DNA of 64,000 nt from positions 63,736,001 through 63,800,000 of the forward strand of contig CM059441.1 in NCBI GenBank assembly GCA_030390025.1, given 5' to 3'. Positions 1,448 to 64,000 of this stretch are shown one piece after another (the first letter of the stretch is position 1; every line of letters starts with the position of its first letter). The stretch comes from Squalus acanthias (taxonomy: Eukaryota). The notes below the pieces were generated by a model. That model ran no database searches. It was not told the DNA's origin and saw nothing but the letters and a program-made list of their open reading frames with translations. The translations under genes and the position numbers were made by a program.

Positions 1448-1723
1448 ATCCACCCAAAGAGACGACAGTGGCCATAAGCGGAGCCACGGGCGGAATAAGA
1501 GAGGGAGACAACATCATGTTAACCTGCTCCAGTGAAAGCGTCCCTCCGGCATCTAGTTACGCCTGGTTCAGGGTCGACAGAAACATGATCACCCAGTTAA
1601 ACACAAGTGCTCGGTCCATCTACTCCGGTCACCTAACACGGGCGAATGATGCCAGTTTCTATTGCACAGCGAGGAACCCATTGGGTAACGGCACGTCGAC
1701 CATTGTACACCTGAGTGTGGAAT
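1448..1723 (+). CDS. Gene A (MAG/Siglec-like receptor) exon: Ig C2-type domain
   Basis: ttccag|ATCCACCC ... GTGGAAT|gtaagt; phase 1-1, 276 bp; xPPKETTVAISG...IMLTCSSESVPPASSYAWF...DASFYCTARNPLG...HLSVE has the Ig C-W-C core. Confidence 0.92.
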
Positions 1724-1919
1724 GTAAGTAGTTTACTCTATCTGACTCTTATTTAAACTCAGGCACTTCCTGTCTGTGAAAAGCTTACTTCTTGTCGTCA
1801 CATTTCCAGTATGCACTTTTCCCGTTGTGTCCGGTTTCCACAGTTATAATGGTAACTGCCTATGTTAATGTCACACTTAATTCTTGCGTGCTGGACCGGT
1901 TCCTGATTGGGCCAGGGAT

Positions 1920-3130
1920 CCTAGAATCATAACATGATACAGCACAATCGGAAGCCATTCTTTGAAAGAGCTATCCAATTAGTTCCACTCTCTTTCCTCA
2001 TAACCCTGCAAAATTTTGTCACTTCTAATATTTATCCAATTACCTTTTGAAAGTTACAATTGGATCTGCTTTCACTGCTTTTTCAGGCAGTGCATTCGAG
2101 ATCTTAACAACTGCCGAAAAAAAAATTCTTCTCATCTCACCACTGGTTCTTTTGCCAACTACCTAAAATTTCTGTCCTTTGGTTAAAACCCTTCTGCCAT
2201 TGGAAACAGTTTCTCCTTATTTACTCTGTTAAAACCCTTCATGATTTAAACACCTCTATTAAATCTCCCCTTAACCGTCTCTGCTGTAAGGGGAACAACC
2301 CCAGCTTCTCCAGTTTCTCCACGTACCGGCACTCCCTCATCCCTGGTACCATAGAGTCATAGAATCATAGAAATTTACGGCAGAGAGGAGGCCATTCGGC
2401 CTATACTGTCTGCGCCGGCCTAAAAAGAGCTATCTAGTCTAATCCCACTTTCTAGCTCTGGGTCCGTAGCCTTGTAGGTTACAGCAGTTCAGGTGCATAT
2501 CCAAGTTCTTTTTAAATGTGATGAGGGTTTCTGCCTCTACCACCCTTTCAGTCAGTGAGTTCCAGACCCCCACCACCCTCTCGGTGAAAAGAATTCTCCT
2601 CAACTCCCCTCTATTACTTTAAATCTATGCCCCATGGTTATTGACCTCGCTGCTAAGGGAAATAAGTCCTTCCTATCCACTCTATCTGGGTCCCTCATAA
2701 TTTTATACACTACAATTAAATCTCCCCTCAGCTTTCTCTGTTCCAAAGATAACAACCCCAGCCTATCCAATCTTTCCTCATAGCTAAAATTCTCCAGTTC
2801 TGGCAACATCCTCTTCAATTTCCTCTGTACCTTCTCTAGTGTAATCACATTGTTCCTGTATTGTGGTGACCAGAACTGTACGCAGTACTATAGCTGTGGC
2901 CTAAATCGTGTTTTATACGTTTCTAGCATAACCTCCCTGCTCTTATATTCGATGCCTCGGTTAGTAAATCTCTTCTGCACCCTCTCTAAGGCCTTCCTAA
3001 AGCATGTGGTGACCAGAATTGGACACAATATTCCAGCTGAGGCCGAACCAATGATTTACCAGAGGTTTAGCAATAATGTCCTTGCTTCTGTACTTTCTGC
3101 CTCTATTTATAAAGCCAAGTATCTCATCAT
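1920..3130 (-). mobile_element. Stacked CR1 LINE 3' fragments
   Basis: ORF 2600-2848 LEKVQRK..RMLPEL..FSYEERLDRLGL.SLE.R.LRGDLI is the CR1 ORF2 C-terminus; catagaat-type 3' tails. Confidence 0.8.
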
Positions 3131-3477
3131 ATAGAGATGAAGTGGATTAACAGATAATGCACGGTCCTTGCGATCTCCTGTACTGGCTTTCGATCGCCTG
3201 AGGGTGTTAGAGAGGAGTTTTCGAGCGTATTTTCTTTCCCTTATTGGCCCTGGGATTTTATCTCTGAATTTTAAGTCTCTCCCAGGAGATTACATGTCTG
3301 TGGGGGGAACGAGGAGGATGAAGTGTCTAGACATGCGGCTCCAGACATCATGAGCATCTGGGGGTGGGGGTCGGTGGGGTGGGGGAAACTGATGGACCAG
3401 CTGGGGTCTCGCTGCCCACCCCACCTCCCCGGTCATTATCGTACGAAACGCGCTGATGCTGGGTGAGGTGCCCGCAT

Positions 3478-4070
3478 CGTTACAACAGCAACAACTTGCA
3501 TTTATATAGCGCCTTTAACATACTAAAATGTCCCACGGCACTTCACAGAAGCGTTATCAGACAAAATTTGATAGCAAACCACATAAGGAGATATTAGGGC
3601 AGATGACCAAAAGCTTGGTCAAAGAGATAGGTTTTAAGGAGCGTCTAAAAGGAAAGAGAGAAAGACGCAGCGAGGTTTAGGGAGGGAATTCCAGAGCTTA
3701 GTGCCTAGGTAGCTGAAGGCACGGCCGCCAATGGTGGAGCGGTTAAAATCGGGGATGAGCAGAAGGCCAGAACTGGAGGACCGCAGAGATCTCGGAGAGT
3801 TGTAGAACTGGATGATGTTACAGAGATAGGGAGGGGCGAGGCCATGGAGGGATTTGAAAACAAGATTGAGAATTTTAATATCGAGGCGTAGCTGGACCGG
3901 GAGCCAATGTAGGGCAGCAAGCACAGGGGTGATGGGTGAATGAAATTTGCTGCGAGTTAGGATACAGGGCAGCAGAATTTTGGATGAGCTCAAGTTTACG
4001 GAGGGCGGAAGATATGAGGCCGGCCAGGATTGCATTGGAATAGTCAAGTCTAGAGGTAACAAGAGGGTTT
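3478..4070 (-). mobile_element. L2-type LINE 3' fragment
   Basis: ORF 3634-4062 ITPVLAALHWLPV...APPYL...GGRAFSY..KLWNSLP; tail gcatttatatagcgcc. Confidence 0.82.
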
Positions 4071-4142
4071 CAGTGTTAGGATTCTATCTTACAGTCTTAC
4101 AGTGCTACGACATTGTCTAATTTGTTATTCTTACTCCCTCAG

Positions 4143-4436
4143 ATAAGCCAGAGATTTCCCGGGAGTCGGAATGCACACGGACGGCCAAGGGTGTCACCTG
4201 CGTCTGCGTGGCCAGATCCAACCCACCCGGAGACCTCACCTGGCACCTTCCCCTCGCTAACGTCAGCGGCAACCAAACAAGCGGCCATTTCGTGACGTGG
4301 CGGGTCAGCGACGGGCAGCTGGTGACTGGCTCCCTGACCCTGACGGGTCGCGAGGGTGAGGAGGGAGCGACGGTCTTCTGCTCAGTTAGAAACCAGCACG
4401 GAGAAGCAATGTTCAAGGTGTACCTGTGGGCCAAAG
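4143..4436 (+). CDS. Gene A exon: membrane-proximal Ig domain resembling MAG domain 5
   Basis: ccctcag|ATAAGCCA ... GCCAAAG|gtaaga; phase 1-1, 294 bp; YKPEISRESECTRTAKGVTCVCVARSNP...LVTGSLTLTG...VFCSVRNQHG parallels MAG d5 (ES.C......QCLCVVKSNP...LTSILTL...ICTARNLYG). Confidence 0.92.
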
Positions 4437-6736: not shown

Positions 6737-6833
6737 GTAGAGACTCCAATAAATGGCAAGTAGGATTGCTTGTAGCTGGGATCACGTTGAGTGTTGAACT
6801 GGCTGGATTCTTAACCTTCAAGTGCATGAGAAA
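6737..6833 (+). CDS. Gene A exon: transmembrane segment
   Basis: ttttacag|GTAGAGAC ... ATGAGAAA|gtaagt; phase 1-2, in frame with both neighbours; GRDSNKWQVGLLVAGITLSVELAGFLTFKCMRK. Confidence 0.85.
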
Positions 6834-8128: not shown

Positions 8129-8210
8129 GAGAAAGGCAGCGACTGAGGGGAGAGATTCACAGACCAGTGACATTGCAATGACCGACAGTCCACTCTCCGC
8201 GCAGCACCAG
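8129..8210 (+). CDS. Gene A exon: juxtamembrane cytoplasmic exon
   Basis: tatttcag|GAGAAAGG ... CACCAG|gtacag; phase 2-0, joins the TM exon to the terminal exon in frame; RKAATEGRDSQTSDIAMTDSPLSAQHQ. Confidence 0.8.
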
Positions 8211-14643: not shown

Positions 14644-14886
14644 GGTACGCAGAGCACAGTGGTTGTTGACCCCTGGAACACAACCAGTGACGCAAATAGC
14701 GAGGCAAAGAAACCAGTTCCCCAAGATTTCTCTGAAGGTCCGGTGGGAAAAGATGCTGGACATGGACAACCAGATAAGCACGAGGACCTTCTGTACGCCA
14801 ACATCAACTTCTTGAAGCTGCCCAGTGGTGATGGGACGGTCCACCGGGGCGAAGTCACGGAATACGCACGGATCAGATTCCAGTGA
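14644..14886 (+). CDS. Gene A terminal coding exon: cytoplasmic tail with ITIM and ITSM-like motif
   Basis: ttttctttgtag|GGTACG phase 0; GTQSTVVVDPW...HEDLLYANINF...EVTEYARIRFQ*; TGA ends at 14886. Confidence 0.9.
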   Translation, partial: GTQSTVVVDPWNTTSDANSEAKKPVPQDFSEGPVGKDAGHGQPDKHEDLLYANINFLKLPSGDGTVHRGEVTEYARIRFQ

Positions 14887-14901
14887 AACTGAGCACGAAA
14901 C

Positions 14902-15031
14902 GGGGTGAGGGGGGAGGGGTGAGGGGTGAGGGGTGAGGGGTGAGGAGGGAGGGGTGAGGGGTGAGGGGTGAGGGGTGAGGGGGGAGGGGTGAGGGGTGAG
15001 GGGTGAGGGGTGAGAGGTGAGGGTTAGGGTT
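14902..15031 (+). repeat. (GGGGTGA)n heptamer repeat, G-quadruplex-prone, immediately 3' of the gene A stop
   Basis: About 18 units of ggggtga with variants, ending gggttagggtt. Confidence 0.93.
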
Positions 15032-15097
15032 CGTAGAGTTTGATATTCCTGGTAACACCAGACAACCTGCTGGGGGAGATATTGGGCACGGGGAAGT

Positions 15098-15550
15098 GTC
15101 AACCGTGGCTCAGTTGGTAGCACTCTTGCTTCTGAGTCAGGAGGTTGTGGGTTCATATTCCAACTCCAGAGACTTGAACACATAATCCAGGCTAATATTC
15201 CACTGCAGTACTGAGGGATTGCTGCACTGTCAGAGGTGGCGTCTTTAGGATGAGATGTTAAACGAAAGCCCAGTCTGCCCTCTCAGTTGGACAGAAAATA
15301 TCCAATGGCAGTATTTTGAAGAAGAGCAGGGGAGTTAGCCGTAGTGTCCTGTCCAATATTTATCCCTCAAACAACATCACAAAAACACATTATCTGGTCA
15401 TTATCACATTGCTGTTTGTGGGAGCTTGCTGTGTGCAAATTGGCTGCCGGGTTTCCTACATTACAACAGTGACTTCATTGGCTGTAAAGCGCCTTGGGAC
15501 CTCCTGAGGTTGTGAACAGCGCTGTATAAATGCAAGTCTTTCTTTTTCTT
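15098..15550 (+). mobile_element. Full-length Deu-domain tRNA-derived SINE (unexpanded copy)
   Basis: A box tggctcagttgg, B-box-like gttcatattcc, a single cagtactgagggattgctgcactgtcagagg unit, Deu core, L2-like tail ending aaatgcaagtctttctttt. Confidence 0.85.
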
Positions 15551-16409
15551 GACTGAAAGCTTTTGTACTTGGCGTGATTGGGATGAAATGCTTGACCACA
15601 GACAACTTGATGCTGACCCATTGGGACAAGAGATTAGAAGATCCGCCTCTCTCTGCACAAACACTTCTCAGGGAATTCTATAACACAGGAGGAGGCCATT
15701 TGGCCCATCAAGCCTGAAAGAGCTGTCCCCTTAATTCAGTTCCCCCACCCTTTCCCCCATTTGCCCATCGCCCCCGTGCTAGCTCTCTGAAAGAAATCTC
15801 CCCGTAGTCCCAATCCCGTGCCCTATCCCCATACTTTTAAAAAAGTTTCCTATTTCAAATATTTCTCCACTTCCCTTTTTAAATCTATTCTGGATTCTGC
15901 TTCCCCCAGTGTTCCTGGCCGGACATTCCATGACTCAACAAAAGACACTCTCTCTGAACATCTGGACAGTGTGCATTCCACAAAGGGAAGAACAGCTGAG
16001 AGAGGCCATTCGACCCATCGAGCTAAACACTCCACATAACCCCGGGACTCTCCGTCACACCATCCCTCCGCCTCGTGCACGAGGCCAAGGTTTTTGACCC
16101 CACTCCCCGACCTGGATCCAATCCCAGGTTTCGATCGCTCTCCATGAATTACTTCAGTCCTGAACTCCACATTTTCCTTCGCCCCACCATTGATGGCCGT
16201 GCCTTCAGGTGCCTAGGTCCTGAGTTCCGGAATTCCCTCCCTAAACCACTCCACCACTCTCTCCTCTCCTTTAAGACGCTCCTTAAAACCTAACTCTTTG
16301 ACCAAGCTTTTGGTCACCTGTCCGGACATCTCCTTCCGTGCTCGGTGTCAATTTTTTTCTGGTTATGCTCCTGAAAAGTGCCTTGGGACATTTTACTACA
16401 TTTTTTAAA

Positions 16410-18035
16410 ATTTGTTTTATGGGATGTGGGCGTCGCTGGCAAGGCCAGCATTTACTGCCCATCCCTAGTTGCCCTTGAGAAGGTGGTGGTGAGCCACCTT
16501 CTTGAACCGCTACAGTCCGTGTGGTGAAGGTACTTCCACAGTGCTGTTAGGGAGGGAGTTCCAGGATTTTGACCCAGCGACGATGAAGGATCGGCGATAT
16601 ACTTCTAAGTCAGGATGGTGTGTGACTTGGAGGGGAACTTGGAGGTGGTGGTGTTCCCATGTGCCTGCTGCCCTTGTCCTTCTAGGTGGAAGATGTCACG
16701 GGTTTGGGAGGTGCTGCCGAAGTAGCCTTGGCGAGTTGCTGCTGTGCATCTTGTAGATGGTACACACTGCAGCCACGGTACGTCGGTGGTGAATGTTTAA
16801 GGTGGTGGATGGGGTGCCAATCAAGTGAGCTGCTTTGTCCTGGATGGTGTTGAGCTTCTTGAGTGTTGTTGGAGCTGCATTCATCCAGGAAAGTGGAGAG
16901 TATTCCATCACACTCCTTACTTGTGCCTTGTAGATGGTGGAAAGGCTTTGGGGAGTCAGGAGGTGAGACGCTCGCCACAGAATACCCAGCCTCTGACCTG
17001 CTCGTGTTGCCACAGTATTTATGTGGCTGATCCAGTTCAGTTTCTCGTCAATGGTGACCCCCAGAATGTTGATGGTGGGGGATTCAGTGATGGTAATACC
17101 GTTGAATGTCAAGGGGAGGTGGTTAGACTCTCACTTGCTGGAGATAGTCATTGCCTGGCACTTCTGTGGCGTGACTGTTACCTGCCACTTATCAGCCCAA
17201 GCCTGAACGTCGTCCAGGTCTTGTTGCATTTGGGCATGGACTGCTTCATCATCTGTGGAGCTGTGAATTGCGCTGAACACTGTGCAGTCATCAGCAAACA
17301 TCCCCATTTCTGACCTTATGTTGGAGGGAAGCAGCTGAAGATGGTTGGGCCTAGGACAGTGCCCTGAGGAACTCCTGCAGCGATGTCCTGGGGCTGTGAT
17401 GATTGACCTTCAACCACCATCTTCCTTTGTGCTAGGTATGACTCCAGCCAGTGGAGAGTTTTCCCCCCAGTTCTCATTGACTTCAGTTTTACTAGGGCTG
17501 CTTGATGCCACACTTGCTCAACTGCTGCCTTGATGTCAAAGGTAATCACTCTCACCTCACCTCTGGAATTCAGCTCCTTTGTCCATGTTTGGACCAAGGC
17601 TGCAATGAGGTCGGGAGCTGAGTGGTCTTGGCGGAACCCAAACTGGGCATTAGTGAGCAGATTATTGGTGAGTAAGTGCCGCTTGATAGCACTTTCGATG
17701 ACACCTTCCATCACTTTGCTGATGATTGAGATTAGACTGATGGGGTGGTAATTGGCTGGGTTGGATTTGTCCTGCTTTTTTGGACAGGACATACCTGAGC
17801 AGTTTTCCACATTGTCGGATAGATGCCAGTGTTGTTGCTGTACCGGAACAGCTTGGCTAGAGGCATGGCTAGTTCTGGAGCACAAGTCTTCAGCACGATA
17901 GCTGGGATGTTTTCGGGACCCATAGCCTATGCTGTATCCAGTGCGCTCAGCCGTTTCTTGATATCACGTGGAGTGAATTGAATTGGCTGAAGACTGTCTT
18001 CTGTGATGGTGGGGACCTCAGGAGGAGGCCGATAT
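16410..18035 (-). mobile_element. LINE family B (CR1/Jockey-group non-LTR retrotransposon), 5'-truncated and degraded
   Basis: ORFs 17316-17885 (NYHPISLISIISKVME..QFGFRQ..DIKAA..GVPQGTVLGP) and 16696-17112 (LSTIYKAQVRSVMEYS). Confidence 0.9.
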
Positions 18036-19240
18036 GGGAGGCGCTATATAAATACAGGTTGTTTTTGTTGTAACATTGATTTGTGCAGTGTCCTAATGGA
18101 ACCAAGAGGGTCTTTCATCAAGGCGTGCAGTGTGTGGGCAATAAATGCGTTGCATGCCAACAAATAAACATGCCCTTTGAACCTGGTACACCCCAGCCCT
18201 TCTGTGTTGCCACATCATAACTGAGGTACTGCCTTACTGCATGCAGCCATCATGGTAGAAAAGTAATGAACAGACATGTAGCGCCACTCAACTTTGATAT
18301 CAGATCTGAACGTTCTTTTTGATTGTTGCACCTTTTTTATGCTGTGAAAGTTTGCAAGAAGCATATGGGTTATGCATAATATTACATTTATTAACACAAG
18401 GCATTAAAATGCTCAAACTGTTATGTACATTTATATCTATATTAAACATCTTACATCTGTGCACAATTCGTGTCTTCATAACCTTATTTCCTGTTGTCGC
18501 ATTTCCCCACATTGTGTAAATTCTAGTGGCCACATTTATAATGGAAACGCCTATGTAAACATGTCACACTGTATTTACACCGTCCTGCCAGAGGTGGCGC
18601 TGTAGTGTCGCAGTTTTGTATCTGAGAGGAAATCTTCCCACTGTGTTTATGATATTATTAGCACACAGGGAGTGGGGGAATCTTCCCACTCTGTTTACGC
18701 TGCTGTTAAGACAGGTACCAGGGGGCTCTTTCTGTTGTGTTTACATGGTTGTTAAGACAGAGGACTGGGGAAATCTTCCCTCCTCCTCTCAACTTGAGCG
18801 CAGGGCCAGGCCTAGCGGTGAGGGCAACCCCCGCTCCCCCACCCCCACCGCCACCTCCCCCCCCCCCCCCGTTCGTTTGGTCGGCCCTGCTCAAACTTAC
18901 CGGTCTTACACATAAAGAGTGGACACATAGCACAACTATCAAAGGGCTGCCCAGTGTCGTTCGAACAGAAAACCCCCTGATTATCAATAACCTGGTGAAA
19001 CCTTTCAGTTCAGTCCTAAAGCAAACATCTAATATTCACTTTATTATAAATGATTAGATGTCTTGACTGTGTCCATCAACGTTATCAGGTTATCGACTCC
19101 TATCTATCTCGTGAATCGTATTTAAAAGTCTTACATACAGAAAAAAAAGAGTGAAAGTGCATTAAGCGCAGTGACAGACATTCCGCCAAGCTTGAAAATA
19201 GGAAAGTACTTTCCCTTACATAGTTAAGTAGATTTACACA

Positions 19241-19330
19241 GGGTTACACAGAGTTACATTGAGTTACACAGAGTTACATTGAGTTACACAGACTGACATA
19301 GTGTTACACAGAGTTACATTGAGTTACATG
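19241..19330. repeat. 10-bp repeat (gagttacaca/gagttacatt) at the tail of a - strand CR1-derived fragment
   Basis: About 9 tandem units read directly from the sequence. Confidence 0.8.
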
Positions 19331-19581
19331 GAACCCACAGCACAGAAACAGGCCATTCAGCTCAACTGATCACTGTCGGTGTTTATGCTCCACACGAGCC
19401 TTCTCCCACCACTCTTCATCTCACCCGATCAGCATAACCTTCTAACCTTTTCTCCCTCATGTGTTTATCTAGCTTCCCCTGAAATGTATCAGTGCCATTT
19501 GCCTCAACCACTCCACATTCTCACCACTCTCTGGGTAAAGAAGTTTCTCCTGAATTCCCTATTGGATTTATTAAAGATTAT

Positions 19582-20334
19582 GGGCTAGAAATTTGGCTCC
19601 TTTGTGCCTGCCGGTAGCACCTCTGGGGGGCGCTAACAGGGCGCAAAAGGCTTATCACCCGGTGGGGGGGGGAGGAGAAAAAAGCGCCTCCTGAGAAATT
19701 CGGGGAATGTTGCGGAGGCGCTGCCCAATAGCGCTGCGCCAATGCTGTTAGCGCCCCGGGCCGCTGTGCAGCCAGCGATGACGTCATCGCCGTGTGAGGC
19801 TACCTCTTTGCGCCCTGCTGTGTCCACTCACCGACCCGCAGCAGGAATTTGACTGCCCGGCGAGGCTGCCACGGGCGATGTCAGCGCCAGCCTCACTGGT
19901 GGCGAACAGGGCCGACCTCCGCTGGCAGGGTGGTATTTAAAGGGAGGGTGCAGCCGCGACCTGCGTCGCCTTTTTTTTGGGCCGAGGTCCGGGTCGGCCC
20001 TCCGTGGTGGGCTGTGGCGTGCTCCTGGCCACGTCTCAGTGCTGGGCTGCGGCCGCGGCACCATGCCAGCCTGGTGGCCTAGTGTGGGCCATCGGAGGCC
20101 CTGCAGAGTGCGCAGCGTCCCTCCCCTTTAACTGAAGTGGAGGGGCGTTGAAACACAGAGCCTCTGCGGGGCACTGTCGATCGCGCCCCGACATCGCCTC
20201 CGTTACCGCCCCACCAGAAAGTGGAGCGCACAGGATTGGGCTCCACTACCTGTGCAGGCGGTAAACCGAATTTAGTGGCCGGGGCGGTACTTCCTTGCCA
20301 GGCGCCAAACGGGGCGTAACCGAATTTCGCACCC
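19582..20334. mobile_element. Harbinger-type MITE, family 2 (related to the coding Harbinger at 24866-28762)
   Basis: TIR GGGCTAGAAATTTGG vs revcomp GGGTGCGAAATTCGG (11/15); TAT on both flanks; interrupts a CR1 fragment; right end cgccaaacggggcgtaaccgaatttc resembles 28731-28757. Confidence 0.8.
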
Positions 20335-20631
20335 TATTTTATAATCATGGCCACTGGATTTGGACTCCACCACAAGTGGAAACATCTTCTCTATGTCTAT
20401 TGTATCGAACTCTTTCATAATTTTGGAGACTTCTATCAGGTCATCCCTCAGCCTTCTCTTTTCTGCGTTTCCTACATTACAACAGTGACTACACTTCAAA
20501 AAATAGTACTTCATTGGCTGTAAAGCGCTTTGGGACGTCCGGTGGTTGTGAAAGGTGCTATATAGATGCAAGTCTTTTTTTTAAAGATTAAATTTGGGTC
20601 ATGTAGAGCAGAGCATCAGAGAGCTCTCTTT

Positions 20632-22514
20632 CAACAACAACAACTACTTACATTTATATCATGACTTTAATGTAGTAAAATGCCCCAAGGCACTTTATAG
20701 GAGCGTTATCAATACAAATTTTGACACCGAGCCATTTAAGGAGATGACCAAAAGCTTGGTCAAAGAGGTAAGTTTTAAGGAGAGTCTTAAAGGAGGAAAG
20801 AGAAATGGAGAGGCAGAGAGGTTTAGGGGGGGATTTCCAGAGCTTAGGACCAAGGCAGCTGAAGGCATGGCCACCAATGGTGGAGCAATTAAAATCGGGG
20901 ATGTTCAAGAGGCCAGAATTGGTGGAGCGCAGGGATCTCGGGGGGTTTGTGGGGCTGGAGGAGATTACACAGCTAGGGAGGGGCGTGGCCATGGAGGGAT
21001 TTGAAAACAAGGATGAGGATTTTGAAATCGAGATCTTGCTTAACTGGGAGCCAATGTAGGTCAGCGAGCACAGGGGTGATGGGTGAGATGTACTTAGAGC
21101 GAGTTAGGACACAGGCGGCAGAGTTTTGGATGACCTCAAGTTTATGTAGGGTAGAACTAGGGAGGCGAGCCAGGAGTGCATTAGAATAGTCAAGTCTAGA
21201 GGTAACAAAGTTATGGATGAGGCTTTCAGCAGCAGATGAGCTGAGGCAAGGGCGGAGACGGGCGATGTTACGGAGGTGGAAACGGGCGGTCTTAGTGATG
21301 GAGCGGATATGAGGTAGGAAGCTCAACTCGTGCTCAAATATGACACCAAGGTTGCGAACGGACTAGGACAGCCTCAGACAGCTGCCAGGGAGAGGGATGG
21401 AATCGGTGACCGAAGACAATGGCTTTGGTCTTCCCAATGTTTAATTGGAGGAAATTGCCGCTCATCCAGTGCTGGATGTCGGACAAGCAGTCTGACAGTA
21501 TAGAGGTAGCGGAGGGTTCGAGAGAGGTGGAGGAGAGGTAGAGCTGGGTATCATCAGCGTACGTGTGAAAACTCCAGCTGTGTCATCGGATGATGTCACC
21601 GAGGGGCAGCATGTAGATGAGAAATAGGAGAGGGCTACGGATAGATCCTCGGGGGACACCAGAGGTGACGGTGCGGGAGCGGGAAGAGAAGCTGTTGCAG
21701 GTGATTCTATGGCTATAACTGGATAGATAAGAATGGAACCAAGCGAGGGCAGTCCCATCCAGCTGGACGACGGTGGAGAGGCATTGGAGCAGAATATTGT
21801 GGTCAACTGTGTCAAAGGCTGCAGACAGGTCGAAAAGGACCAGGAGCGATAGCTTACCATTGTCACCGTCAATTAAGATGTCATTTGTGACCTTGGTAAG
21901 AGCCGTTTTGGTACCGTGGCAGGGGCAGAAACCTGATTGTAGTGATTCAAACAAAGAGCTCCGGGAAAGACGGGTATGGATATGGGGGGGTGGCAACACG
22001 TTCAAGAACGAACTTTGGAGAGGAAAGGGAGGTTGGGGATAGGGAGGTTGGAGATGGGGCGGTAGTTTGCAAGGACAGAGGGGTCAAGGGTTGGCTTTTT
22101 GAGGAGAGGGGTGATGATGGCAGATTTGAAGGAGAGGGGGACAGTACCTGAGGAGAGAGAACCATTAACAATATCAACTAATATGGGAGCCAGGAAGGGA
22201 AGTTGGGTGGTCAGCAATTTAATAGGAATAGGGTCGAGAGAGCAGGAGGTCGGTCTCATTGACATGATGAGCTTTGAGAGGGCATGAGGGGAGATAGGAG
22301 AGAAACCCAGTGGGCTAGGGGAAGGGAGGGAATTAGCAGAGGCAGTTGAATGGATATTCTCGATCATTTTGACAAAAAAGTCCATGAGCTCCTCGCATTT
22401 ATTGTTGGAGGGGAGGGAGGTGGAAGCAGGGGAGGGTGGTTTGAGAAAAAGGTTTGTGGTGGAGGAGAGAAGCCGGGTGTTATCTTTGTCTACCCGGATG
22501 ATCTTAGAACTATC
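20632..22514 (-). mobile_element. L2-type LINE, degraded ORF2 (RT and C-terminus)
   Basis: ORFs 22002-22385 (CSLDPIP..NYRPISNLP), 21583-22005 (QSGF..DLSAAFDTVDH..GVP.GS), 20973-21326. Confidence 0.9.
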
Positions 22515-24284
22515 TGTTCTTCCCTTAGGACTGTCTGTTCAAAGTTCGAAGCTGACTCCATTTTGGTAACAGTTATGATTTTATTTAAGCATAAGTGAGA
22601 TTCAATGCACTCAGTATTTGAGCAGCAGTTTACAAAGTACAATTAAGAATCATATTACCCACTGTAACTGTCCTAGCTGTCCTTTGGGTAGAAGGCGTGG
22701 CCCATTCCTCGTTCCTTCTACCCACATATGCATTTGCACCAGTTAGGATCAGTGCCCTTCCTGACCCTTCCAACTGAGAATGACCCAAACCTGCTAGGAT
22801 ATACCCCAAGAACTGGAACTACAGAAAGCTCTATCCAATCATGTATCTCCCATACCCCCCATTCGACCCAATCAGGAGCTGGTAAATTCTGTGGCCAGCA
22901 CAGGCCTTAGGCATCCTTTGTCAGAGCCTTAGTGCAATCTTTTTCTGTTTCCATGGTGATGACATAACCCAGGACCTTGCTTTAACCTAATTCTAACAGG
23001 AAAAAGACCAAATTAATACTAACTTAACAACAACTATAAACTGGCAATCTTAGAATTAAACTATGGTCTGGCAACGCTCAATACTAAAAATTAGTAAAAG
23101 GAATTTAGCTGGTTATGTTACTATTGCTCACTTTCCCACATACAAGAACCAGATAAGAGATAAGGCTGAGATAGACCGGAGCCTCCCTCTTCTCTTCCCG
23201 AGCATTTCTAGCAAAAGCAAGGGCAATTCAGCCATAAACATGGCCATCCTTAACACATACCAAAACCTGCAATTTGAAAGTGGTGGATTTTTCAGAATAT
23301 CTGTTCTAACAAAAAGCTTTGGGGTCATTGAACTCTTTGCAATGCCTGATCCCGCAAAATACCATATTCTTGACCCCTCACTCAATCTTATTTCCCATCC
23401 TTCTGCAGGAGGGCAGCCAATTCTAAGTTATTAGCATGTCGGCTAAGTACATATATTTCAAGCAACAGATCATGGTAAAGAAAAAGAAAATCATAATACA
23501 TTGTACAGAAAGCTACAGTTTACCATATGATCAATAAATCATGAAATTAAAAGATTCTCCGGCTCACTCTTTACCCATATCCATCTTGTTGATAATTCTT
23601 ACTAACTATTATTTCTCCCTAACCCTCAATTGTCCCAATCCAAATTCTATGTCCCTCTCCACTTCAAGTTCAATTTCGATTTCTCTGACAGGTGCCAGTG
23701 TGTTTAACTCTATCCTGATTGTTTCATTAATTAGATAGTTTCTCCATAGAGCATGTGTCAGTGCCTTGGTGATTTAGAAAGTTGTCTCACTCTCCTGAGT
23801 CACATTAATCATTTCATGCTGTTCTGTTGTCAAGTGCCTGAGCATGTCTGAGACCCATTCTTCAGTGCAAATTCTGCATGCTAGTTGCTTCATAGGTAAT
23901 AAATCACATTTGCCACACATGACACCTGATACAAGCCATTCTTGGGTTTCAGGTGATGTTATCAAAAGATCGTGGGGTGACTGGAGATCTTTGCTCATCT
24001 CCTCCTGTATAGTCCCATTGTTCCGGGTAGTGGCCAGGCTATCAAATGCAGTTTTCTTAAAAAGTTCATAGGGAAGGCCACAAACATCTGCAAGAGAAAG
24101 CTATCAATTCACTATTCTCACCTACACTTTCCTGACTTTCACTAGATTATACATTGCTACCAGATTGACAACTTTTGGTGAATTGTGCCCAGTTGATGTA
24201 TTCCAATTTAGCCAAGAAAATTATTTTAGAAAAATTCCCATTTGGTGTAACTGTTCTGTTTCTATCTTCCATCCTAAGTGGGGC
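22515..24284 (-). other. Unclassified 1.8-kb block, possible LTR or 3' end of an LTR retroelement
   Basis: Cuts the L2 abruptly at TG (CA on - strand); - strand AATAAA at 22580-22585, about 65 bp from that end; no similarity to other repeats in the window. Confidence 0.35.
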
Positions 24285-24865
24285 ATAGAAACATAGAAGA
24301 TTGGAGCAGGAGTAGGCCATTCGGCCCCTCGAGCCTGTTCCGCCATTTAATGAGATCATGGCTGATCATCCAAATTCAGTTCACCCTCTCCCTTCTTTCT
24401 CCCCATATCCCTTGATCCCTTTAGCTTGAAGAAATATATCTAACTCCTTCTTGAATATATTTAATGAATTGGCCTCAACTGCCTTCTGTGGTAGAGAATT
24501 CCACAGGTTCACCACTCTCTGGGTGAAGAAATTCCTCCTCATCTCAGTCCTAAATAGCTTACCCCTTATCCTTAGACTGTGACCCCTGGTTCTGGACTCC
24601 CCCGCAATCGGGAACATCCTTCCTGCATCTAGTCTGTTTAGTCCTGTTAGAATTTTATAAGTTTCAATAAGATCCCCTCTCATTCTTCTAAACTCTAGCG
24701 AATATAAGCCTAATCGACCCAATCTCTCTTCATACGTCATTCCTGCCATCCCAGGTATCAGTCTGGTGAATCTTCGCTGCACTCCCTCCATGGCAAGAAC
24801 ATCCTTCCTCAGATAAGGCGACCAAAACTGCACACAGTACTCAAGGTGTGGTCTCACCAAGGCCC
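24285..24865 (-). mobile_element. Young 5'-truncated CR1
   Basis: Uninterrupted ORF 24381-24860 VRPHLEYCVQFWSP..IPGMAGMTYEERL; catagaaa tail. Confidence 0.92.
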
Positions 24866-25208
24866 GCAGATCATGAAGTCAGTCGAGCGTGCAACGCCCT
24901 GGTGGCGCCCCGGACTGGATATTGAGTGGCGCCCCCTCCTTTCCGCCTGGTGCAAGCAACGACAGGGAGACTGGAACGTTTCCCAGTCGGTGAGGGGCTG
25001 GGGGGACACTATTTAAAGGCGCCCTCTTCCTGGCTTTTTCTGTGGTAGACATTTTTGCACCTCTCATTCTGACAGAGAGAGAGATTCTGAGAGAGAGAGA
25101 GAGAGACTTCTGCATAGAGGCAGCGTTGTGTGGAGTAGTTTTGGCTACTGAGCATCACTTTGCAGGTACTTTTGGATTTGACCTTCATTACTCGATTGCC
25201 AAGAGACT

Positions 25209-26366
25209 TTGGGGGCTGCACTGATTCGGGGCATCGTCCTGCACCTGCAGAATCGGAGGCAACAGAGACTCAGAGAGAGAGAGGTAATCATGGCCAGACA
25301 GAGGAAGGCCAACAGGCCTCTGCACAGGAGACCTTACCCTCCCAGGGTATTCCGGGAACAATTCTCCGACATTAATTTGTCTGAGGAGCAGTGTTTGCGC
25401 AGGCTGCGCTTCAGCAAGGAGGTGGTCACTGAGCTCTGCCACCTGCCGCATCCAGATCTGCAGCCTCAACTGAGGACCAGGACATCTCTGTCGGTGGCAG
25501 TGAAGGTCACAGTGGCTCTGAATTTTTAAGCCACTGGCTCCTTTCAAGCAGCTACTGGGGACATCGCCAATATCTCCCAGTTCACGGTCCATTGCTGCAT
25601 CCGTCAGTTCACAAATGCCTTCTATAAAAGGAGACGCCAGTATATCTCTTCCCCGATGACCCGGGCCAAACAGCATGAACGCGCATTGGGCTTTGCGAGG
25701 ATAGCGGGCTTCCCCATGGTGCAGGGCACCATTGACAGCACGCATGTGGCATTGCGGGCACCGCATGAGAATACAGAGGTTTTCCGAAACCGCAAGGGGT
25801 TCCACTCCTTAAACGTCCAGTTAGTCTGTGACCACAGACAGCTGATACTCGCTGTCAATGCCTGCTATCCTGGCAGCAGCCATGATGCTTTCATCCTGTG
25901 CTAGACTGGTGTGCCAGAACTTTTCCAGGCACCGCATCAGCCAAGTGGTTGGCTCCTCGGGGACAAGGGTTATCCATTCTGCACCTGGCTGATGACACCG
26001 CTCCGTAACCCCAACACCCCTGCTGAGCCGCGGTACAATGAGAGCCATCTTGCCACCAGGAACATTATTGAGCAGATGATCGACGTGCTCAAGCAACGGT
26101 TCCGCTGTCTGGACCACTCTGGAGGAGCCCTGCAGTACTCGCCTGAGTGAGTCTCCCTCTTCATAGTTGTGTGCTGCATTCTTCATAACCTGGCAATCCT
26201 CAGGACCCAGCCAATGCCACCAGGCCTTGGAGCACCACCAGAGGAGGAGGAAGAGGAGGAGGAAGAGGAGGAGGATGATCAGCAGCAGCACCAAGGTGGG
26301 AGGGAGGCCCACAATGTTGAAACTGGAAGGGCCGTCCGTCAACGTCTGATAGCAAGCTGCTTCTAG
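25209..26366 (+). pseudogene. Harbinger DDE transposase (HARBI1-like) pseudogene
   Basis: ORFs 25209, 25656, 25911 and 26169 share one frame, broken by stops at 25527, 25902 and 26148; motifs [58 protein letters not shown]. Confidence 0.92.
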
Positions 26367-26796
26367 GCCCCTGCTGAGGAAATGGCTTCTGGCATGGAGA
26401 ACAACATAAATGAAAGCAACCCGCAACCCCAAAGCCAGCCAAGACAGCAATGATTCAAAAGGCCAAACCTGTACATTTTGAATACAAAAACGTTTTTATT
26501 TTACAAACTCTGTGTGTCATTTCTTCATGACAAACTAATAGAAACAAACACAAAAAATCATTAATTAACATAACTGGTTCTCACAACCTGGAGATAATGT
26601 CCAAAACACTAAACAAAAGTTTGAACACGAACCTCGGCCTTTAATAAAAAAATTCCCAACATTTCGTCACACCTCCTACTTTTTGCCCTTCGAGGGTGAT
26701 CTCCATCTCTTGCCCACTTGCCCCTTTCCCACCCTACTGCTCCTCCGTAATGGGGCCCCAGTGGCTGCAGCAAGGCTGGTAGAAGGCTGCTGATTG

Positions 26797-28402
26797 TTAA
26801 GAACCTGAGACTACAGATGCCCTTGAAGGACGGCCTCGACCAGCTCTGGGCCTGGAAGGCCCGGCTGCAGACTGCACCAACTCTGCATGGGCGGCAGCAG
26901 TCTGGGCTACAGGTGGTGGCAAGTGCAATGGGGAAGTGACATTGGTGGCAGCAGGAATGCTGTCATCTTCAGAGAGGACAGCAACTAAATGCTCGACTGA
27001 TACACTGGCATTCCCATGAGGCAGCACCTCAGCATCCGGAGCAATCTGCTGGAGCACAGATTGCTGTCCAAACCAGCGACAATGGCAGCAGTCAGTGCTT
27101 GCATGGCCTCAATCTGAGTCTGCATGAGACCAGTCTGAGATTGGATCACGGCAGCCAGTGACTGAATTGCAGCACTAAGTATTTGTGTGGCATCCGCCTG
27201 TGCTACAGCGACGTGCTCCACACTCCTTGCCAGTGCATCGATGCAATCGGGCACCCTTCCGACTGCACCCATGAGCTGAGTGTGCATGTCCACCACCTGG
27301 GTGTTCATTTCAGCGATGAGCCGCTCCTCCTCTGCATCCAGTGCAGCAGGACTCGCTGACCTACTCTCCCTCCGGGGAGAAGGCCCCCGAGCTTCCCTAG
27401 CCACATCGCGTTGCTGCAGCCCGCTGGGTCCCAGAGCTTCACCCTCATCAGACCCTTCCCCCCTGCTCCCCTCCAGGAAAGACGTGGTCCCAGTGTGGGC
27501 ATGGGCTTCCTCGGGAGAGGTTGTCACTGATGCTCCGGCTTCCTCTTCCTCCTCGCCTGCGGCTTCGCTCCCACTGGCAGCTTGAGGGCACGTCTCCTCA
27601 GCTGGTGAATCACCATCTGAAAGCAGGGAGGTACAAGTGTGGCTTTAGCATCAGGACAGGGGGGCAGTAAGGGAGGAAGGAGTGGAGCGATTTAGTAAGT
27701 TGGATTGAAAGTGTCAAAGGCTGGTGTTGTGAGGGACAAGTGGAATGAGAGAGAGAAAGCTGATGACCTTACCATTGCTGTCCCAAACGGGGTCGACCTC
27801 TCCAGGGGCGACGGGACCGATCACCTGGCTTGCCACAATCCTGTGGACGCGCGCCTCAAGATCGCTGAGGTGTTGCAGCTGAGGCCGCCCTCCACCCGTC
27901 CGTTGCTGCTGTCTCCTGTTATGAGATAGCTTGGCCTGCAAGAAAAAGGATGGCATCTGAGTAAATATACAGCCATGGTCTTGCCTGATGTGCCTCCCAT
28001 AGGTGAATAGCCCTTACTGTATGCAAAGTGTGGAATGTGTGTGTGTGTTTCATGAGAGGGCCAAAGGTGTTGGATGAGTGTTGGGCATTGGGGTTTTATG
28101 ACCCTCTGGCCATAGAGTGAGGTTGAAATGGAGGGTTGGAGAGGTATTGAAAAAAAGCCACTCACCCTGACGACCCGAGTGAGGTCGTTGAACTTTTTGC
28201 GACATTAAGTATGGGTCCTGGGCACCATGCTCCTGGAGGAGACATGCTGAGCCACCTCCCTCCACACTCTTCTGTAATCGCGCGGCAAAGGCCTCCTGCC
28301 GCTCTCAGGGAAGAGTATAGATCTTCTGCGCTCCACCGCGCCAACCAAAGCCTCCAAGGCCCGCTCGCTGAAGCGCTGAGCTCGTTCTCTCACCCTCTCC
28401 AT
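26797..28402 (-). pseudogene. Harbinger ORF2: spliced Myb/SANT-like (trihelix) DNA-binding protein pseudogene
   Basis: Exon 1 28402-28166 MERVRERAQRFSERALEALV..VWREVAQHV..RTHT*CRKKFNDL (stop 28205-28207); exon 2 27935-27773 AKLSHNRRQQQRTGGG; exon 3 from 27616 (acidic then coiled region, frameshift near 27060); GT-AG introns in matching phases (0, 1). Confidence 0.85.
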
Positions 28403-28762
28403 AGTCCTTGGCTGGAAAATGTAGTCACAGGTCTCTCCAGGCCGAGATTCAAGGCTCCAATGAGCAGGGTGTGGCTGGAGAGCAAGATCGACCCTCCCCT
28501 TTAAGAACTGGCCGGCATCAGTGTGTCTGTGTTCCATCGCTAACTGACATCACCTGCGCTGCGCCCGCGCTCTGAGTTAGCGCCTTGCACCTCGGCCTTT
28601 GCGTCTTAAGACAGGTGTGCAGCACCTGATTTAGCGCTCCAATCACCTCCAGGGGCGATAAAAGCCAAGTTTGCAGTCGGAGGCGATAATTAGCGCCAGG
28701 CTCTAAACTTTGCGCCCGGCCGATAATTGCGCCCCAAACGGGGTGATACCGAATTTCTCCCC

Positions 28763-35475: not shown

Positions 35476-35477
35476 GT

Positions 35478-37332: not shown

Positions 37333-37338
37333 TTTATT
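37333..37338 (-). promoter_or_regulatory. Candidate polyadenylation signal for gene B
   Basis: AATAAA on the - strand about 820 bp past the stop at 38161, in non-repetitive sequence. Confidence 0.35.
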
Positions 37339-38160: not shown

Positions 38161-38277
38161 TTATACATTCCCATATACAGAACTTTCGTCAATCGTACAG
38201 TTTTCGTAAAAATCATGATCTTGATATTGATTGATGCGGCGATTAGATTTGATTTCCAGGTCCTCCTCCTCTTTCTT
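38161..38277 (-). CDS. Gene B terminal coding exon (cytoplasmic tail with Tyr motifs)
   Basis: Polypyrimidine tract ttccttttctattacag|AAGAAA; phase-0 reading KKEEEDLEIKSNRRINQYQDHDFYENCTIDESSVYGNV*; missing from the ORF track (under 60 aa). Confidence 0.72.
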   Translation of the reverse strand, partial: KKEEEDLEIKSNRRINQYQDHDFYENCTIDESSVYGNV

Positions 38278-49518: not shown

Positions 49519-49631
49519 CTGGGCCATTTTGATCAGTGCAGGGAGAATTTTAGCGTATTTCTCCCTCTTCTGTTTTGGACTCATGGACTTCATTTCGGAC
49601 TGGTCCTCTGACACCGGCACTTCCTTCTGGT
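49519..49631 (-). CDS. Gene B putative juxtamembrane cytoplasmic exon (reading frame problem)
   Basis: tgtttttag|ACCAGAAG ... GGCCCAG|gtaaca; 113 bp; entered in phase 2 it reads KPEGSAGVRGPVRNEVHESKTEEGEIR* (TAA 49550-49552); another frame is open to a phase-0 donor (...EKYAKILPALIKMAQ). Confidence 0.5.
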
Positions 49632-51590: not shown

Positions 51591-51609
51591 TAGTTGCTTT
51601 CATACTCAC

Positions 51610-55979: not shown

Positions 55980-56237
55980 TTTCGGTGGGAATTCTAACGG
56001 GCGGAGACCGTGAGCTGCCCAGGGCACTTGTTGCTTTGCAGTAGTAGGAGATTTCCTCTCCGATGTCAAAGGGAACAGTAATAGTTTGAGCAACTTTTCT
56101 CAGATCAGTATCTTTTCCGTTGGAGACCTTGGACCAGGAGAAACTGTGGACTGCTGGGTTACCCTCACTGGAACAACTCAGGGAAATCATATTTCCTTTT
56201 ATGAATGTCATTCTGACGAGAGTGTTTTGAGGAAAGT
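55980..56237 (-). CDS. Gene B exon: Ig C2-type domain
   Basis: tttccaag|ACTTTCCT ... ACCGAAA|gtgagt; phase 1-1, 258 bp; YFPQNT..ISLSCSSEGNPAVHSFSWSK..SYYCKATSALG. Confidence 0.92.
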
Positions 56238-57487: not shown

Positions 57488-57775
57488 ATTTTACACTTAA
57501 GGTGACGGAGTTCACCAGTTGATGGCTGGTTTCAGGGTAGTCGGACGTACAGAGAACAGTTAGCCCGTGATGCTTGAACGAAGGGTTAAAGGTCAGCACA
57601 GTGGAAACCTCGCCACTGTTCTTGGTGATGGTGTTGACAGTGGAATCTGGCAAATCACTCCAGGTTAGAATGGGACGATTATCAGGGCAGGCGTAGAGGG
57701 ATCTGCAGATTATATTCGTGGGTGTCCCTTCGCTTATATCCTCTGGGAGTGATATGTCGGGTCTATCCGGATCAT
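57488..57775 (-). CDS. Gene B exon: Siglec domain-2-type C2 Ig domain
   Basis: ttattgttcag|ATGATCCG ... GTAAAAT|gtaagt; phase 1-1, 288 bp; PDISLPEDISEGTPTNIICRSLYACPDNRPILTW..STVLTFNPSFKHHGLTVLC; the extra Cys (C-x5-CP) is the Siglec d1-d2 disulfide position. Confidence 0.92.
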
Positions 57776-62862: not shown

Positions 62863-63150
62863 CTCATTATCTTGAAAACCTCTATTAGGTCACCTCTTAA
62901 CCTTCTCTGTTCCAAGGAGAACAGTCCTAACTTTTCCAACCTCTCCACATAACTGAAGTCCCTCATCCCATGTAACATCCTGGTAAACCTCCTTTGTACC
63001 ATTTCTAAGGCCTTTACATCTTTCCTGATGTGTGGGGCCCAGAATTGTCCACAATACTCCAGCTGAGGCCGAACCTGTGATTTATAAAGTTCGAGCATGA
63101 CCTCCTTGCTTTTGTACTCTGTGCCTCCTCGATCTCTGAAGCCCAAGGAG
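62863..63150 (-). mobile_element. CR1 fragment
   Basis: EYKSKEVMLELYKSQVRPQLEYC..LRGDLIEVFKIM. Confidence 0.8.
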
Positions 63151-63314
63151 CTTTATATGCTTATCTCATCTTCTGGTCAATCTTGAACCTCGGGCTTCTC
63201 AAAAAGGGAAGGACTGTTCCTGACACAGTTGCTGAGGGCAATGTTTTGCAAACGGTTTTGCATTCCCCGCGTTGACATCCCACAACCTGTTCCAGCAAAG
63301 TGACCGAACTAAAA

Positions 63315-63720
63315 AGAAGTCTTACATTTCTATAGCACCTTTCACAACCTCAGTATGTCCCAAAGTGCGTTACAGCCAATTAAGTAGTTTTGAAGTGTAG
63401 TTACTGTTGTAATGTAGGCAACGCAGTAGCCCATTTGCACAGAGCAAGCTCCCACAAACACCAATGTGACAATGACTGGATCATTTTTTTTTAGTGATAT
63501 TGGTTGAGGGACAAATATTGGCCCAGGACACGAGGGAGAACTTCCCTGCTCTTCTTCCAATCAACCTGAGAGGGCAGACGATGCCTCAGTTTAACATCTC
63601 ATCTGAAAGAGTGTCAGCCTGGATTTTGAGCTCAAGTCTCCTCGAGTGGGACTTGAACCCACGACCTCACAGGCGAGAGAGCGAGAATGCTAAACCCATT
63701 GAGCTACGGTTGACACTGAC
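63315..63720 (-). mobile_element. Deu-domain SINE (internally deleted)
   Basis: acagccaattaagtag...cttccctgctcttc...gggacttgaaccc. Confidence 0.78.
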
Positions 63721-63750
63721 AAACTAAGTGTCAAAGGAACTGAGACTTAC

Positions 63751-64000
63751 GGATAACCTGTAGCTGGACGGGTTCTGTGAAAGTATGATCCTTGAAGCCC
63801 TCCAAATCCACATAGAAGTAATACATGCCACTGTCATCGGGTCTGAGATTATTGATCCTCAGGGAGCAATTCTTCTGCTTCAGGTCTCCAACTATTTTGG
63901 CTCGTCCCACGAATTTGTCCATCGCATATTTGGGATCTTTGGTGTAGTAGACTGTATACTTCCAGTAATACCAGTAGTTAAACCAGGCTCCATGCAGGGC
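63751..64000 (-). CDS. Gene B exon (partial): N-terminal Siglec/MAG-type V-set Ig domain
   Basis: Open from the window edge: ALHGAWFNYWYYWKYTVYYTKDPKYAMDKFVGRAKIVGDLKQKNCSLRINNLRPDDSGMYYFYVDLEGFKDHTFTEPVQLQVI|gtaagt (phase 1); E-strand Cys (NCSL) and no F-strand Cys, as in Siglecs. Confidence 0.92.

What the first reader, a model, noticed from the sequence alone, without database searches (positions are those of the whole stretch)
1448..64000. Convergent pair of divergent MAG/Siglec-like receptors with different signalling tails
Seen: two spliced genes face each other (A stops at 14886 on +, B at 38161 on -). They share phase 1-1 Ig exons, a MAG-d5-like last domain (ES.CTR...VTC.CV..SN...WHLP), a phase 1-2 TM exon and a phase-0 terminal exon, but their sequences and tails differ strongly. 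Known: the C-x-C membrane-proximal domain is characteristic of MAG/Siglec-4, while tandem ITIM + ITSM tails characterise CD33-related Siglecs. Inference: this is part of a chondrichthyan expansion of immune-type receptors built on a MAG-like ectodomain (B has 4 visible Ig domains, not 5). This is the best candidate here for an undescribed system.
Basis: partly seen in the sequence, partly recalled or inferred. Interest (0 to 1): 0.75.

Follow-up and report, generated by a model that had tools for sequence, protein, structure and literature searches.

The report
Shark Siglec pair, one arginine-less
These are two spliced genes of a large shark-and-ray family of Siglec-type receptors: one has the inhibitory tail seen in mammalian immune Siglecs and is likely a brake on immune cells, while the other has tyrosine where Siglecs keep their sugar-binding arginine (as do its shark and ray relatives), so it likely binds something else, and this copy carries a frameshift predicted to cut off its signalling tail.

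Summary
Both genes are real and face each other as described. Gene A (+, 3' part only) has a MAG-Ig5-like last domain and an ITIM+ITSM tail; 76 shark and ray proteins match it, many per species. So A has a known Siglec-10-like layout. Gene B is the stranger one. Its V domain has Tyr at the sialic-acid Arg, as do 16 of 16 B-type hits, yet is its best-kept domain (72% vs 61%). Its tail holds two YxN motifs, a type also seen in lungfish, turtle, frog and ray-finned fish proteins. The window's middle tail exon is 20 nt short and frameshifted, giving a tyrosine-free tail; contig depth suggests both forms occur (indirect). Trees reject A+MAG and A+B (AU 0.03, 0.04) but leave B's sister open; no shark MAG was retrieved. 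Verdict: new variant of a known kind.

The parts
1448..1723 (+). Gene A, second-last Ig exon (C2-type), phase 1-1
   Evidence: Pfam Ig_3 E 5.8e-8; 81% to Pristiophorus P0010; GT-AG
4143..4436 (+). Gene A, membrane-proximal MAG-Ig5-like domain with extra C-x-C cysteine, phase 1-1
   Evidence: best PDB hit MAG 5lf5 E 4.8e-12; 76 elasmobranch hits
6737..6833 (+). Gene A, transmembrane exon (phase 1-2), with a Glu inside the helix
   Evidence: sequence; tblastn 76% to P0010; acidic TM residue in 8 of 66 family TMs
8129..8210 (+). Gene A, first cytoplasmic exon (phase 2-0)
14644..14886 (+). Gene A, last exon: ITIM (LLYANI) and C-terminal ITSM (TEYARI)
   Evidence: sequence; 77% to P0010, 36% to gecko L-MAG tail
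63751..64000 (-). Gene B, V-set exon (5' part outside window); Tyr at the sialic-acid Arg position; conserved aromatic-rich C-strand/CC' stretch
   Evidence: best PDB hit MAG E 1.8e-11 with Y aligned to the Arg of MAG's YYFR; Pfam V-set
57488..57775 (-). Gene B, Siglec-type domain 2 with the extra Cys expected for the V-d2 disulfide
   Evidence: PDB Siglec-10 E 8.2e-4, MAG E 1e-3; invariant Cys
55980..56237 (-). Gene B, short C2-type domain 3
   Evidence: Pfam Ig_3 E 1.2e-4, below cut-off; 72% to P0090
54785..55090 (-). Gene B, MAG-Ig5-like C-x-C domain
   Evidence: PDB MAG E 7.1e-8; 83% to P0090
51610..51730 (-). Gene B, transmembrane exon (phase 1-2), uncharged
   Evidence: covered exon-exactly by contigs of 4 of 4 runs laid
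49519..49631 (-). Gene B, middle cytoplasmic exon, 20 nt shorter than the homologous exon and frameshifted; stop at 49552-49550, 31 nt before the donor
   Evidence: comparison with P0090/P0093/P0123 tails, no micro-exon found
38161..38277 (-). Gene B, last exon; phase-0 frame has two YxN motifs 11 residues apart (YENC, SVYGNV); the phase-2 frame (middle exon skipped) gives an 80-aa tail to about 38038
   Evidence: both frames annotated as isoforms X1/X2 in Pristiophorus
30861..30956 (-). Orphan exon-like stretch similar to a cytoplasmic exon of a Carcharodon B-type model; no flanking exons found
   Evidence: tblastn E 7e-8
14887..38160 (.). 23-kb spacer of tandem arrays and transposon-like DNA; no Ig exon of the family found

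Best explanation
The window holds two spliced members of two old, distinct branches of a shark-and-ray Siglec gene cluster: gene A likely works as an inhibitory sialic-acid receptor of the Siglec-10/-11 type, and gene B, which has Tyr in place of the sialic-acid arginine, likely binds a different conserved ligand and would signal through YxN adaptor sites, except that this allele is predicted to make a tail without tyrosines. Shown: exon structure, domain identities, tail motifs, the Arg-to-Tyr change across eight genera of sharks and rays, the frameshift, exon-limited contig cover of B. Inferred for A: Arg-bearing V domain (outside the window; 64 of 71 V domains in its relatives have Arg), Src-kinase phosphorylation of ITIM and ITSM, SHP-1/SHP-2 recruitment, leukocyte expression. 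Inferred for B: loss of canonical sialic-acid binding; a conserved ligand read by the aromatic/basic C-strand and CC' face; Grb2-family SH2 docking on pY-x-N (established SH2 preference, recalled); escape of the truncated transcript from decay (stop 31 nt before the last junction; 50-nt rule recalled), giving a surface decoy.
For: Family size and paralogy: 76 hits, e.g. 8 Pristiophorus clusters and 12 Hemitrygon clusters listing one contig length. Tails: ITIM plus terminal ITSM-like motif in 26 of 66 TM-bearing hits, ITIM only in 25. Three Hypanus proteins have a mid-TM Arg like activating Siglecs (PMC7379906 passage on TM Arg/Lys). Bat Siglec-5/-10 share the C-x-C last domain and ITIM tails. 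V+d2 trees put shark A-type with amphibian and mammalian CD33-related-like proteins (SH-aLRT 88; 78/93), and reject A+MAG and A+B. A-type V domains vary more than their d2 (62.6 vs 71.9%), B-type V less (71.7 vs 61.4%), as MAG does (60.5 vs 40.9%). B-type Tyr in 16 of 16 hits plus Chiloscyllium, Pristis and Stegostoma proteins. Model of the Pristiophorus B protein (pLDDT 74) matches MAG then CD22 best. YxN-ending tails in 8 of 134 new proteins, incl. lungfish, bichir, frog, two teleosts; last-domain tree groups B with them weakly (76/81). MAG R118A lacks sialic-acid binding (PMC5150538 passages).
Against: A's V exon is outside the window, and no RNA was laid on A. The A + tetrapod grouping is not starred in either tree, and the trees have no CD22, Siglec-1, Siglec-15 or shark MAG, so they are unrooted. 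B's sister is unresolved: MAG at 49/71, YxN class not rejected (AU 0.46). [quoted passage not shown] A's own ITIM also has Asn at +2, and B's last motif fits the ITIM consensus, so YxN does not prove Grb2 use. The A vs B conservation contrast is confounded: the A set mixes paralogs. The runs are only guessed to be RNA, have no tissue label, and the two-allele reading rests on bin-depth arithmetic, clear in 2 of 4 runs.
Confidence: 0.68

Rival explanations
1. Gene B is the shark MAG ortholog, or a MAG duplicate, working in glia-axon adhesion without the canonical Arg; A is an unrelated immune neighbour.
For: MAG is the best PDB hit for B's V and last domains and for the fold; B+MAG is one side of a branch in the 48-row tree (49/71); no named shark MAG among 120 listed of 129 gecko-MAG hits.
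Against: B-MAG V identity 33.7% against 60.5% within bony-vertebrate MAG; none of the MAG-invariant CC' motif; four domains, different tail; B-type V exons occur in several copies and in B/A chimeric models; last-domain tree separates B from MAG. One search is weak: it also listed only a handful of ray-finned fish MAGs.
Confidence: 0.12
2. Gene B is a second inhibitory or ITAM-like receptor rather than a Grb2-docking one: its last motif is an ITIM, or the two tyrosines 11 residues apart act as a non-canonical ITAM.
For: SVYGNV fits the ITIM signature quoted in PMC7226832; spacing of the two Tyr equals ITAM spacing (recalled consensus); sequence.
Against: First motif has C, W or Y at +3, not L/I, in the homologs; Asn at +2 is kept at both sites; bony-vertebrate look-alikes carry strings of YxN with varied spacing.
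Confidence: 0.25
3. Gene B in this genome is a decaying pseudogene or the 20-nt loss is an assembly error, so the 'different tail' has no meaning for this pair.
For: Frameshift in 49631-49519; an orphan exon-like remnant at 30956-30861 shows turnover in the cluster.
Against: All ectodomain and TM exons are intact with GT-AG sites and 72-83% identity to Pristiophorus; contigs of 4 of 4 runs cover the TM exon to the base and not unique intron bins; one run (X4) fits the window's form and one (X1) fits a longer form.
Confidence: 0.15
4. The head-to-head-tail (convergent) pair is itself a co-regulated functional unit, an undescribed two-gene system.
For: The orientation is real.
Against: 23 kb of repeats separate the stops; gene models of Pristiophorus, Heptranchias, Cetorhinus, Stegostoma and Carcharodon join B-type starts to A-type ends, which points to same-strand neighbours or shuffling in a larger cluster.
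Confidence: 0.05

Closest known systems
CD33-related Siglec-5/-10/-11 of mammals (here bat XP_059521818 'Siglec-5', XP_036920455 'Siglec-10')
   Same: V + C domains, C-x-C membrane-proximal domain, ITIM plus terminal ITIM-like/ITSM tail, multicopy cluster, members with TM Arg, Arg losses and frameshift polymorphisms (PMC7379906 passages)
   Different: about 30% identity per domain; common descent of the A-type and tetrapod clusters only weakly supported; A has a TM Glu; no mammalian counterpart of B's YxN tail was seen
Myelin-associated glycoprotein (MAG, Siglec-4; PDB 5lf5)
   Same: best structural and sequence match for B's V domain and both last domains; extra Ig5 disulfide pattern; L-MAG tail homologous to A's tail
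   Different: MAG is five-domain, Arg118-bearing and 40-60% conserved across bony vertebrates; A+MAG rejected; B has four domains, Tyr for Arg, another tail
Arg-less Siglecs: human Siglec-XII (R122C), ape SIGLEC5/14 Arg variants incl. one Arg-to-Tyr (PMC7379906)
   Same: loss of the essential Arg; polymorphic frameshift/inactivation
   Different: those are recent, species-level losses; in B the Tyr is shared by sharks and a batoid and sits in the best-conserved domain
RefSeq elasmobranch models named 'MAG-like', 'Siglec-13-like', 'CD22-like', 'sialoadhesin-like' (e.g. XP_038670877, XP_072409840, XP_051864872, XP_067874677)
   Same: these are the direct homologs (A 57-81%, B 67-84% per domain)
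   Different: automatic names only; they do not separate A-type from B-type or note the Arg loss
YxN-tailed Siglec-like proteins of lungfish (XP_043936433), turtle (XP_075763978), bichir (XP_039626491), frog (XP_072281457), tarpon and bonefish
   Same: C-x-C last domain and tails ending in Y-x-N; tarpon and lungfish proteins also lack the Arg
   Different: bichir and frog proteins keep Arg; relation to B weakly supported; label 'YxN class' is mine

Membership tests
Siglec family | N-terminal V-set domain of Siglec type | tested here: met
   B: Pfam V-set 37.9 bits and Ig_CD22 27.4 bits, best PDB MAG, sialoadhesin, Siglec-5/-7. A: exon outside window; present in its closest homologs
Siglec family | Essential Arg on the F strand | tested here: not met
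   B has Tyr. Not testable for A itself; 64 of 71 V domains in A's hits have Arg
Siglec family | Extra cysteines for the V-domain/d2 inter-domain disulfide | tested here: met
   d2 Cys present in window B; all six V+d2 Cys invariant in 16 aligned proteins; V-side Cys lies outside the window
Siglec family | Sialic-acid binding | not testable with these tools
   needs binding assay; B is therefore called Siglec-like, not a sialic-acid lectin
MAG / Siglec-4 ortholog | Five Ig domains, Arg118, MAG-level conservation, grouping inside the MAG clade | tested here: not met
   B four domains, Tyr, 34% V identity, outside the 100/100 MAG clade; A+MAG AU p 0.03. B as sister to MAG neither shown nor rejected
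MAG / Siglec-4 ortholog | Myelinating-glia expression; existence of a separate shark MAG | tested here: inconclusive
   no tissue labels; no shark MAG retrieved by a low-recall search
CD33-related Siglecs | ITIM plus distal ITIM-like/ITSM tail | tested here: met
   gene A LLYANI and TEYARI; not met by B
CD33-related Siglecs | Multicopy, fast-changing cluster with paired activating members | tested here: met
   (activating role of the three TM-Arg proteins is inferred)
CD33-related Siglecs | Common descent with the mammalian cluster | tested here: inconclusive
   88 SH-aLRT, 78/93; unresolved in last-domain tree; no outgroup
CD22 / Siglec-2 ortholog | Seven Ig domains, Arg, multi-ITIM tail | tested here: not met
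   B has four domains and Tyr; CD22 absent from the 60 shown PDB hits; A's tail has two Tyr only. CD22 layout recalled; no CD22 in the trees

The most novel reading that the evidence does not exclude
Jawed vertebrates began with two branches of Siglec-type immune receptors: the ITIM/ITSM branch, so that a CD33-related cluster with inhibitory and activating members already existed before sharks split from bony fish, and a second branch with YxN tails, lost in mammals, whose shark member gave up sialic-acid binding before sharks and rays diverged and now reads a different, conserved ligand, with a tail-less decoy allele segregating today.
Probability: 0.35. Interest if true: 0.7.

Novelty: new variant of a known kind. 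Interest (0 to 1): 0.5.

Why it matters
A published survey states that fish genomes lack inhibitory CD33-related Siglecs (PMC7226832, passages; it studied teleosts), and a 2026 IgSF survey lists the Siglec family cluster under Tetrapoda (PMC13262535, passage). A shark cluster with inhibitory, TM-Arg and YxN-tailed members would move the paired-receptor logic of sialic-acid self-recognition to the base of jawed vertebrates and bear on whether CD33-related Siglecs arose from a MAG-like gene. The B branch gives a ready test case of a Siglec fold kept for a long time without its arginine, where known cases are recent losses; its ligand can be sought with a simple Fc fusion.

Tried and rejected
No genome is held for the window, so flanks, synteny and A's V exon could not be read. 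Micro-exon search to restore B's phase: 38 AG..GT candidates listed, none like the homolog. Missing fifth Ig exon of B: none. Further family Ig or TM exons between the genes: none; one orphan cytoplasmic exon-like hit. Sequencing runs: no RNA holder listed on record; runs were guessed RNA; the laid stretch was swamped by repeats, so no junction or indel row for B was shown. Shark MAG: not among 120 listed of 129 hits. The first careful tree did not finish; the quick tree is reported; 17 of 65 rows were dropped for (long branches, near-duplicates, odd composition, run time) and 12 of 63. A slicing bug gave a wrong skip-isoform line; corrected. Papers not held: four look-ups, among them Bornhofft 2018 on Siglec evolution, which may already discuss cartilaginous fish. 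Earlier scan notes: nothing near, nothing by sequence, unrelated hits by words. No complex prediction was run.
Full report
Observation. The window is repeat-rich (59% self-repeating) and, by its proteins, from a shark: best named matches are Pristiophorus proteins at 72-84% per domain. Gene A (+) has five exons in view, all GT-AG, that splice to one open frame: C2-type Ig, MAG-Ig5-like Ig, TM, and a tail with LLYANI and TEYARI. Last domains hit MAG Ig5 first in the PDB (E 4.8e-12, 7.1e-8) and keep the C..C-x-C pattern that makes MAG's extra Ig5 disulfide (PMC5150538, passages). The 23 kb between the stops hold tandem arrays and transposon-like DNA and no family Ig exon.

All 16 proteins found with this exon have a Tyr-type V domain, as do a Chiloscyllium, a Pristis and a Stegostoma protein: eight genera, sharks and a batoid. 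Among seven B-type sequences V identity averages 71.7% against 61.4% for d2; among seven A-type it is 62.6% against 71.9%; B-MAG V identity is 33.7%, MAG-MAG 60.5%. An aromatic/basic stretch on the C strand and CC' region is invariant in the six complete B-type domains. (2) The TM exon ends in phase 2 and the last exon's tyrosine frame starts in phase 0. The linking exon is 49631-49519; its first four codons match the Pristiophorus isoform X1 in one frame and the rest in another, 20 nt short (113 vs 133 nt), with a stop at 49552-49550. No micro-exon repairs it. The window's allele would end in a short tail with no tyrosine; skipping the exon gives an 80-aa tail, annotated as isoform X2 in Pristiophorus.

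Expression. Twelve runs held part of a B stretch, the best 0.29 of the words where exons alone would give 0.32; none is on record as RNA. Laid on 48900-52200, all four runs gave a TM-exon bin depth equal to 58 bases (56 exon bases plus the 2 expected from a spliced upstream exon) and zero in two unique intron bins. In the middle-exon bin X4 fits 66 bases (window form), X1 fits 58 (stopping at the deletion point), X3 and X6 fit neither simply; X1 and X6 also differ from the window at 51665. This suggests a spliced transcript and two forms, but it is arithmetic on bin depths, not a displayed junction. Gene A was not tested.

The family. A's last domain found 76 proteins among 154 candidates, all sharks and rays, with many per species. 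Of 71 V domains matched in them 64 have Arg, 4 Tyr (B-type starts in fused models), 2 Thr, 1 Lys; 20 of 76 proteins gave no V match. Of 66 TMs found, 26 lead to ITIM plus terminal ITSM-like motif, 25 to an ITIM only; three Hypanus proteins have a mid-helix Arg, the mark of activating Siglecs (PMC7379906, passage), and eight have an acidic residue, as gene A does. Models of five genera join B-type starts to A-type ends; these may be real shuffling or fused predictions.

A profile of the last domain over 1.84 billion proteins gave 571 hits (150 listed). Besides MAG they include bat 'Siglec-5' and 'Siglec-10', axolotl, frog, turtle, lungfish, bichir and teleost proteins (20 named). The bat proteins pair this domain with ITIM tails, and gecko L-MAG's tail aligns with A's (35.6% over 59 aa). 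So A's layout is the known Siglec-10-like one. Among the 134 new proteins of that search 8 end in Y-x-N like B and 12 in an ITSM-like motif by my patterns; tarpon and lungfish YxN proteins also lack the Arg, bichir and frog ones keep it.

Trees (unrooted; no CD22, Siglec-1, Siglec-15 or shark MAG in hand). V+d2, 65 rows, quick: shark A-like groups join amphibian and mammalian CD33-related-like proteins at 88; B (100) joins YxN proteins at 83. V+d2, 48 rows, careful: the first group 78/93; B sister to MAG at 49/71; A+B rejected at p 0.04, A+MAG at p 0.03, B+YxN not rejected at p 0.46; the two rejections are near the 0.05 line. Last domain, 51 rows, 99 columns: window A inside the shark A clade (100/100), window B inside the B clade (100/99), and a weak split (76/81) of B plus YxN and some other fish proteins from MAG, A and tetrapod Siglecs. 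A model of the Pristiophorus B protein (pLDDT 74) matches MAG, then CD22. A gecko MAG search listed no shark protein in 120 of 129 hits, but also few ray-finned fish, so it does not show absence; that sharks have MAG is recalled, not shown.

Mechanism. A: likely binds self sialosides through an Arg-bearing V domain, is phosphorylated on ITIM and ITSM and recruits SHP-1/2 (motifs shown; rest inferred from the family, PMC13358205). B: likely no canonical sialic-acid binding, a conserved other ligand, and adaptor docking on two YxN sites; the window's allele would be a non-signalling decoy. [quoted passage not shown]

Literature. Ten searches (Siglec with shark, cartilaginous fish, elephant shark, chondrichthyan and others) found no description of this family. 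Seen as passages: PMC8455134 (Siglecs named once among gnathostome Ig families; its supplements not read and may list them), PMC4810170, PMC13324653, PMC7226832 (states fish lack inhibitory CD33-related Siglecs), PMC5150538, PMC13262535, PMC7379906; one section of PMC13358205; abstract of PMC12953582. Key reviews (Bornhofft 2018; Cao 2009 and Angata and Varki 2023, both recalled) were not held; I recall that Cao 2009 reported CD33-related-like genes in fish and frog, which would lower novelty. The proteins already exist as automatically named RefSeq models.

Verdict. Real, not an undescribed system: A is a new member of a known receptor kind; B is a new variant, a long-kept Arg-less Siglec-like branch with a YxN tail and a frameshift allele. 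Interest 0.5.

Noticed in passing
window 30956-30861 (-): Orphan exon-like stretch with AG/GT ends, 53-56% like a cytoplasmic exon in Carcharodon models P0078/P0079; lies 3' of B's last exon; no partner exons found.
   Followed up: partly
window 6737-6833 (+): Glu inside gene A's TM helix, shared with four Pristiophorus paralogs; might drive dimerisation or pairing with a TM-basic partner.
   Followed up: partly
P0024, P0032, P0033 (Hypanus sabinus): A-type ectodomains with a mid-TM Arg in a motif spaced like that of an unnamed mammalian Siglec-14/16-like protein (P0197); possible old activating TM exon.
   Followed up: partly
P0002, P0004, P0013, P0072, P0079, P0084, P0085, P0097: Gene models mixing B-type starts with A-type ends; real exon shuffling or fused predictions not told apart.
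   Followed up: no
P0081-P0083, P0086, P0088 (Carcharodon, Cetorhinus): B-type proteins of about 970-1150 aa with domain 3 repeated many times in tandem.
   Followed up: no
P0141, P0222, P0116, P0217: At least two further shark Siglec-like groups with the C-x-C last domain and ITIM/ITSM-like tails; some lack the Arg.
   Followed up: partly
window 10711-12918, 31344-31704, 52219-52933, 53878-54460; 31939-35479; 38376-38764: Tandem arrays: a 33-bp unit at four places, a 42-bp unit in 84 copies, a 29-bp unit in 13 copies.
   Followed up: no
window about 24900-28700: Non-repeated block with transposase-like and companion reading frames on opposite strands, broken by stops; looks like a Harbinger-type DNA transposon (label recalled, not tested).
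   Followed up: no
window 9000-10000, 40100-41400, 42300-46900, 58350-62900: Broken LINE-like reverse-transcriptase and ORF1-like pieces in introns (by eye from six-frame translation).
   Followed up: no
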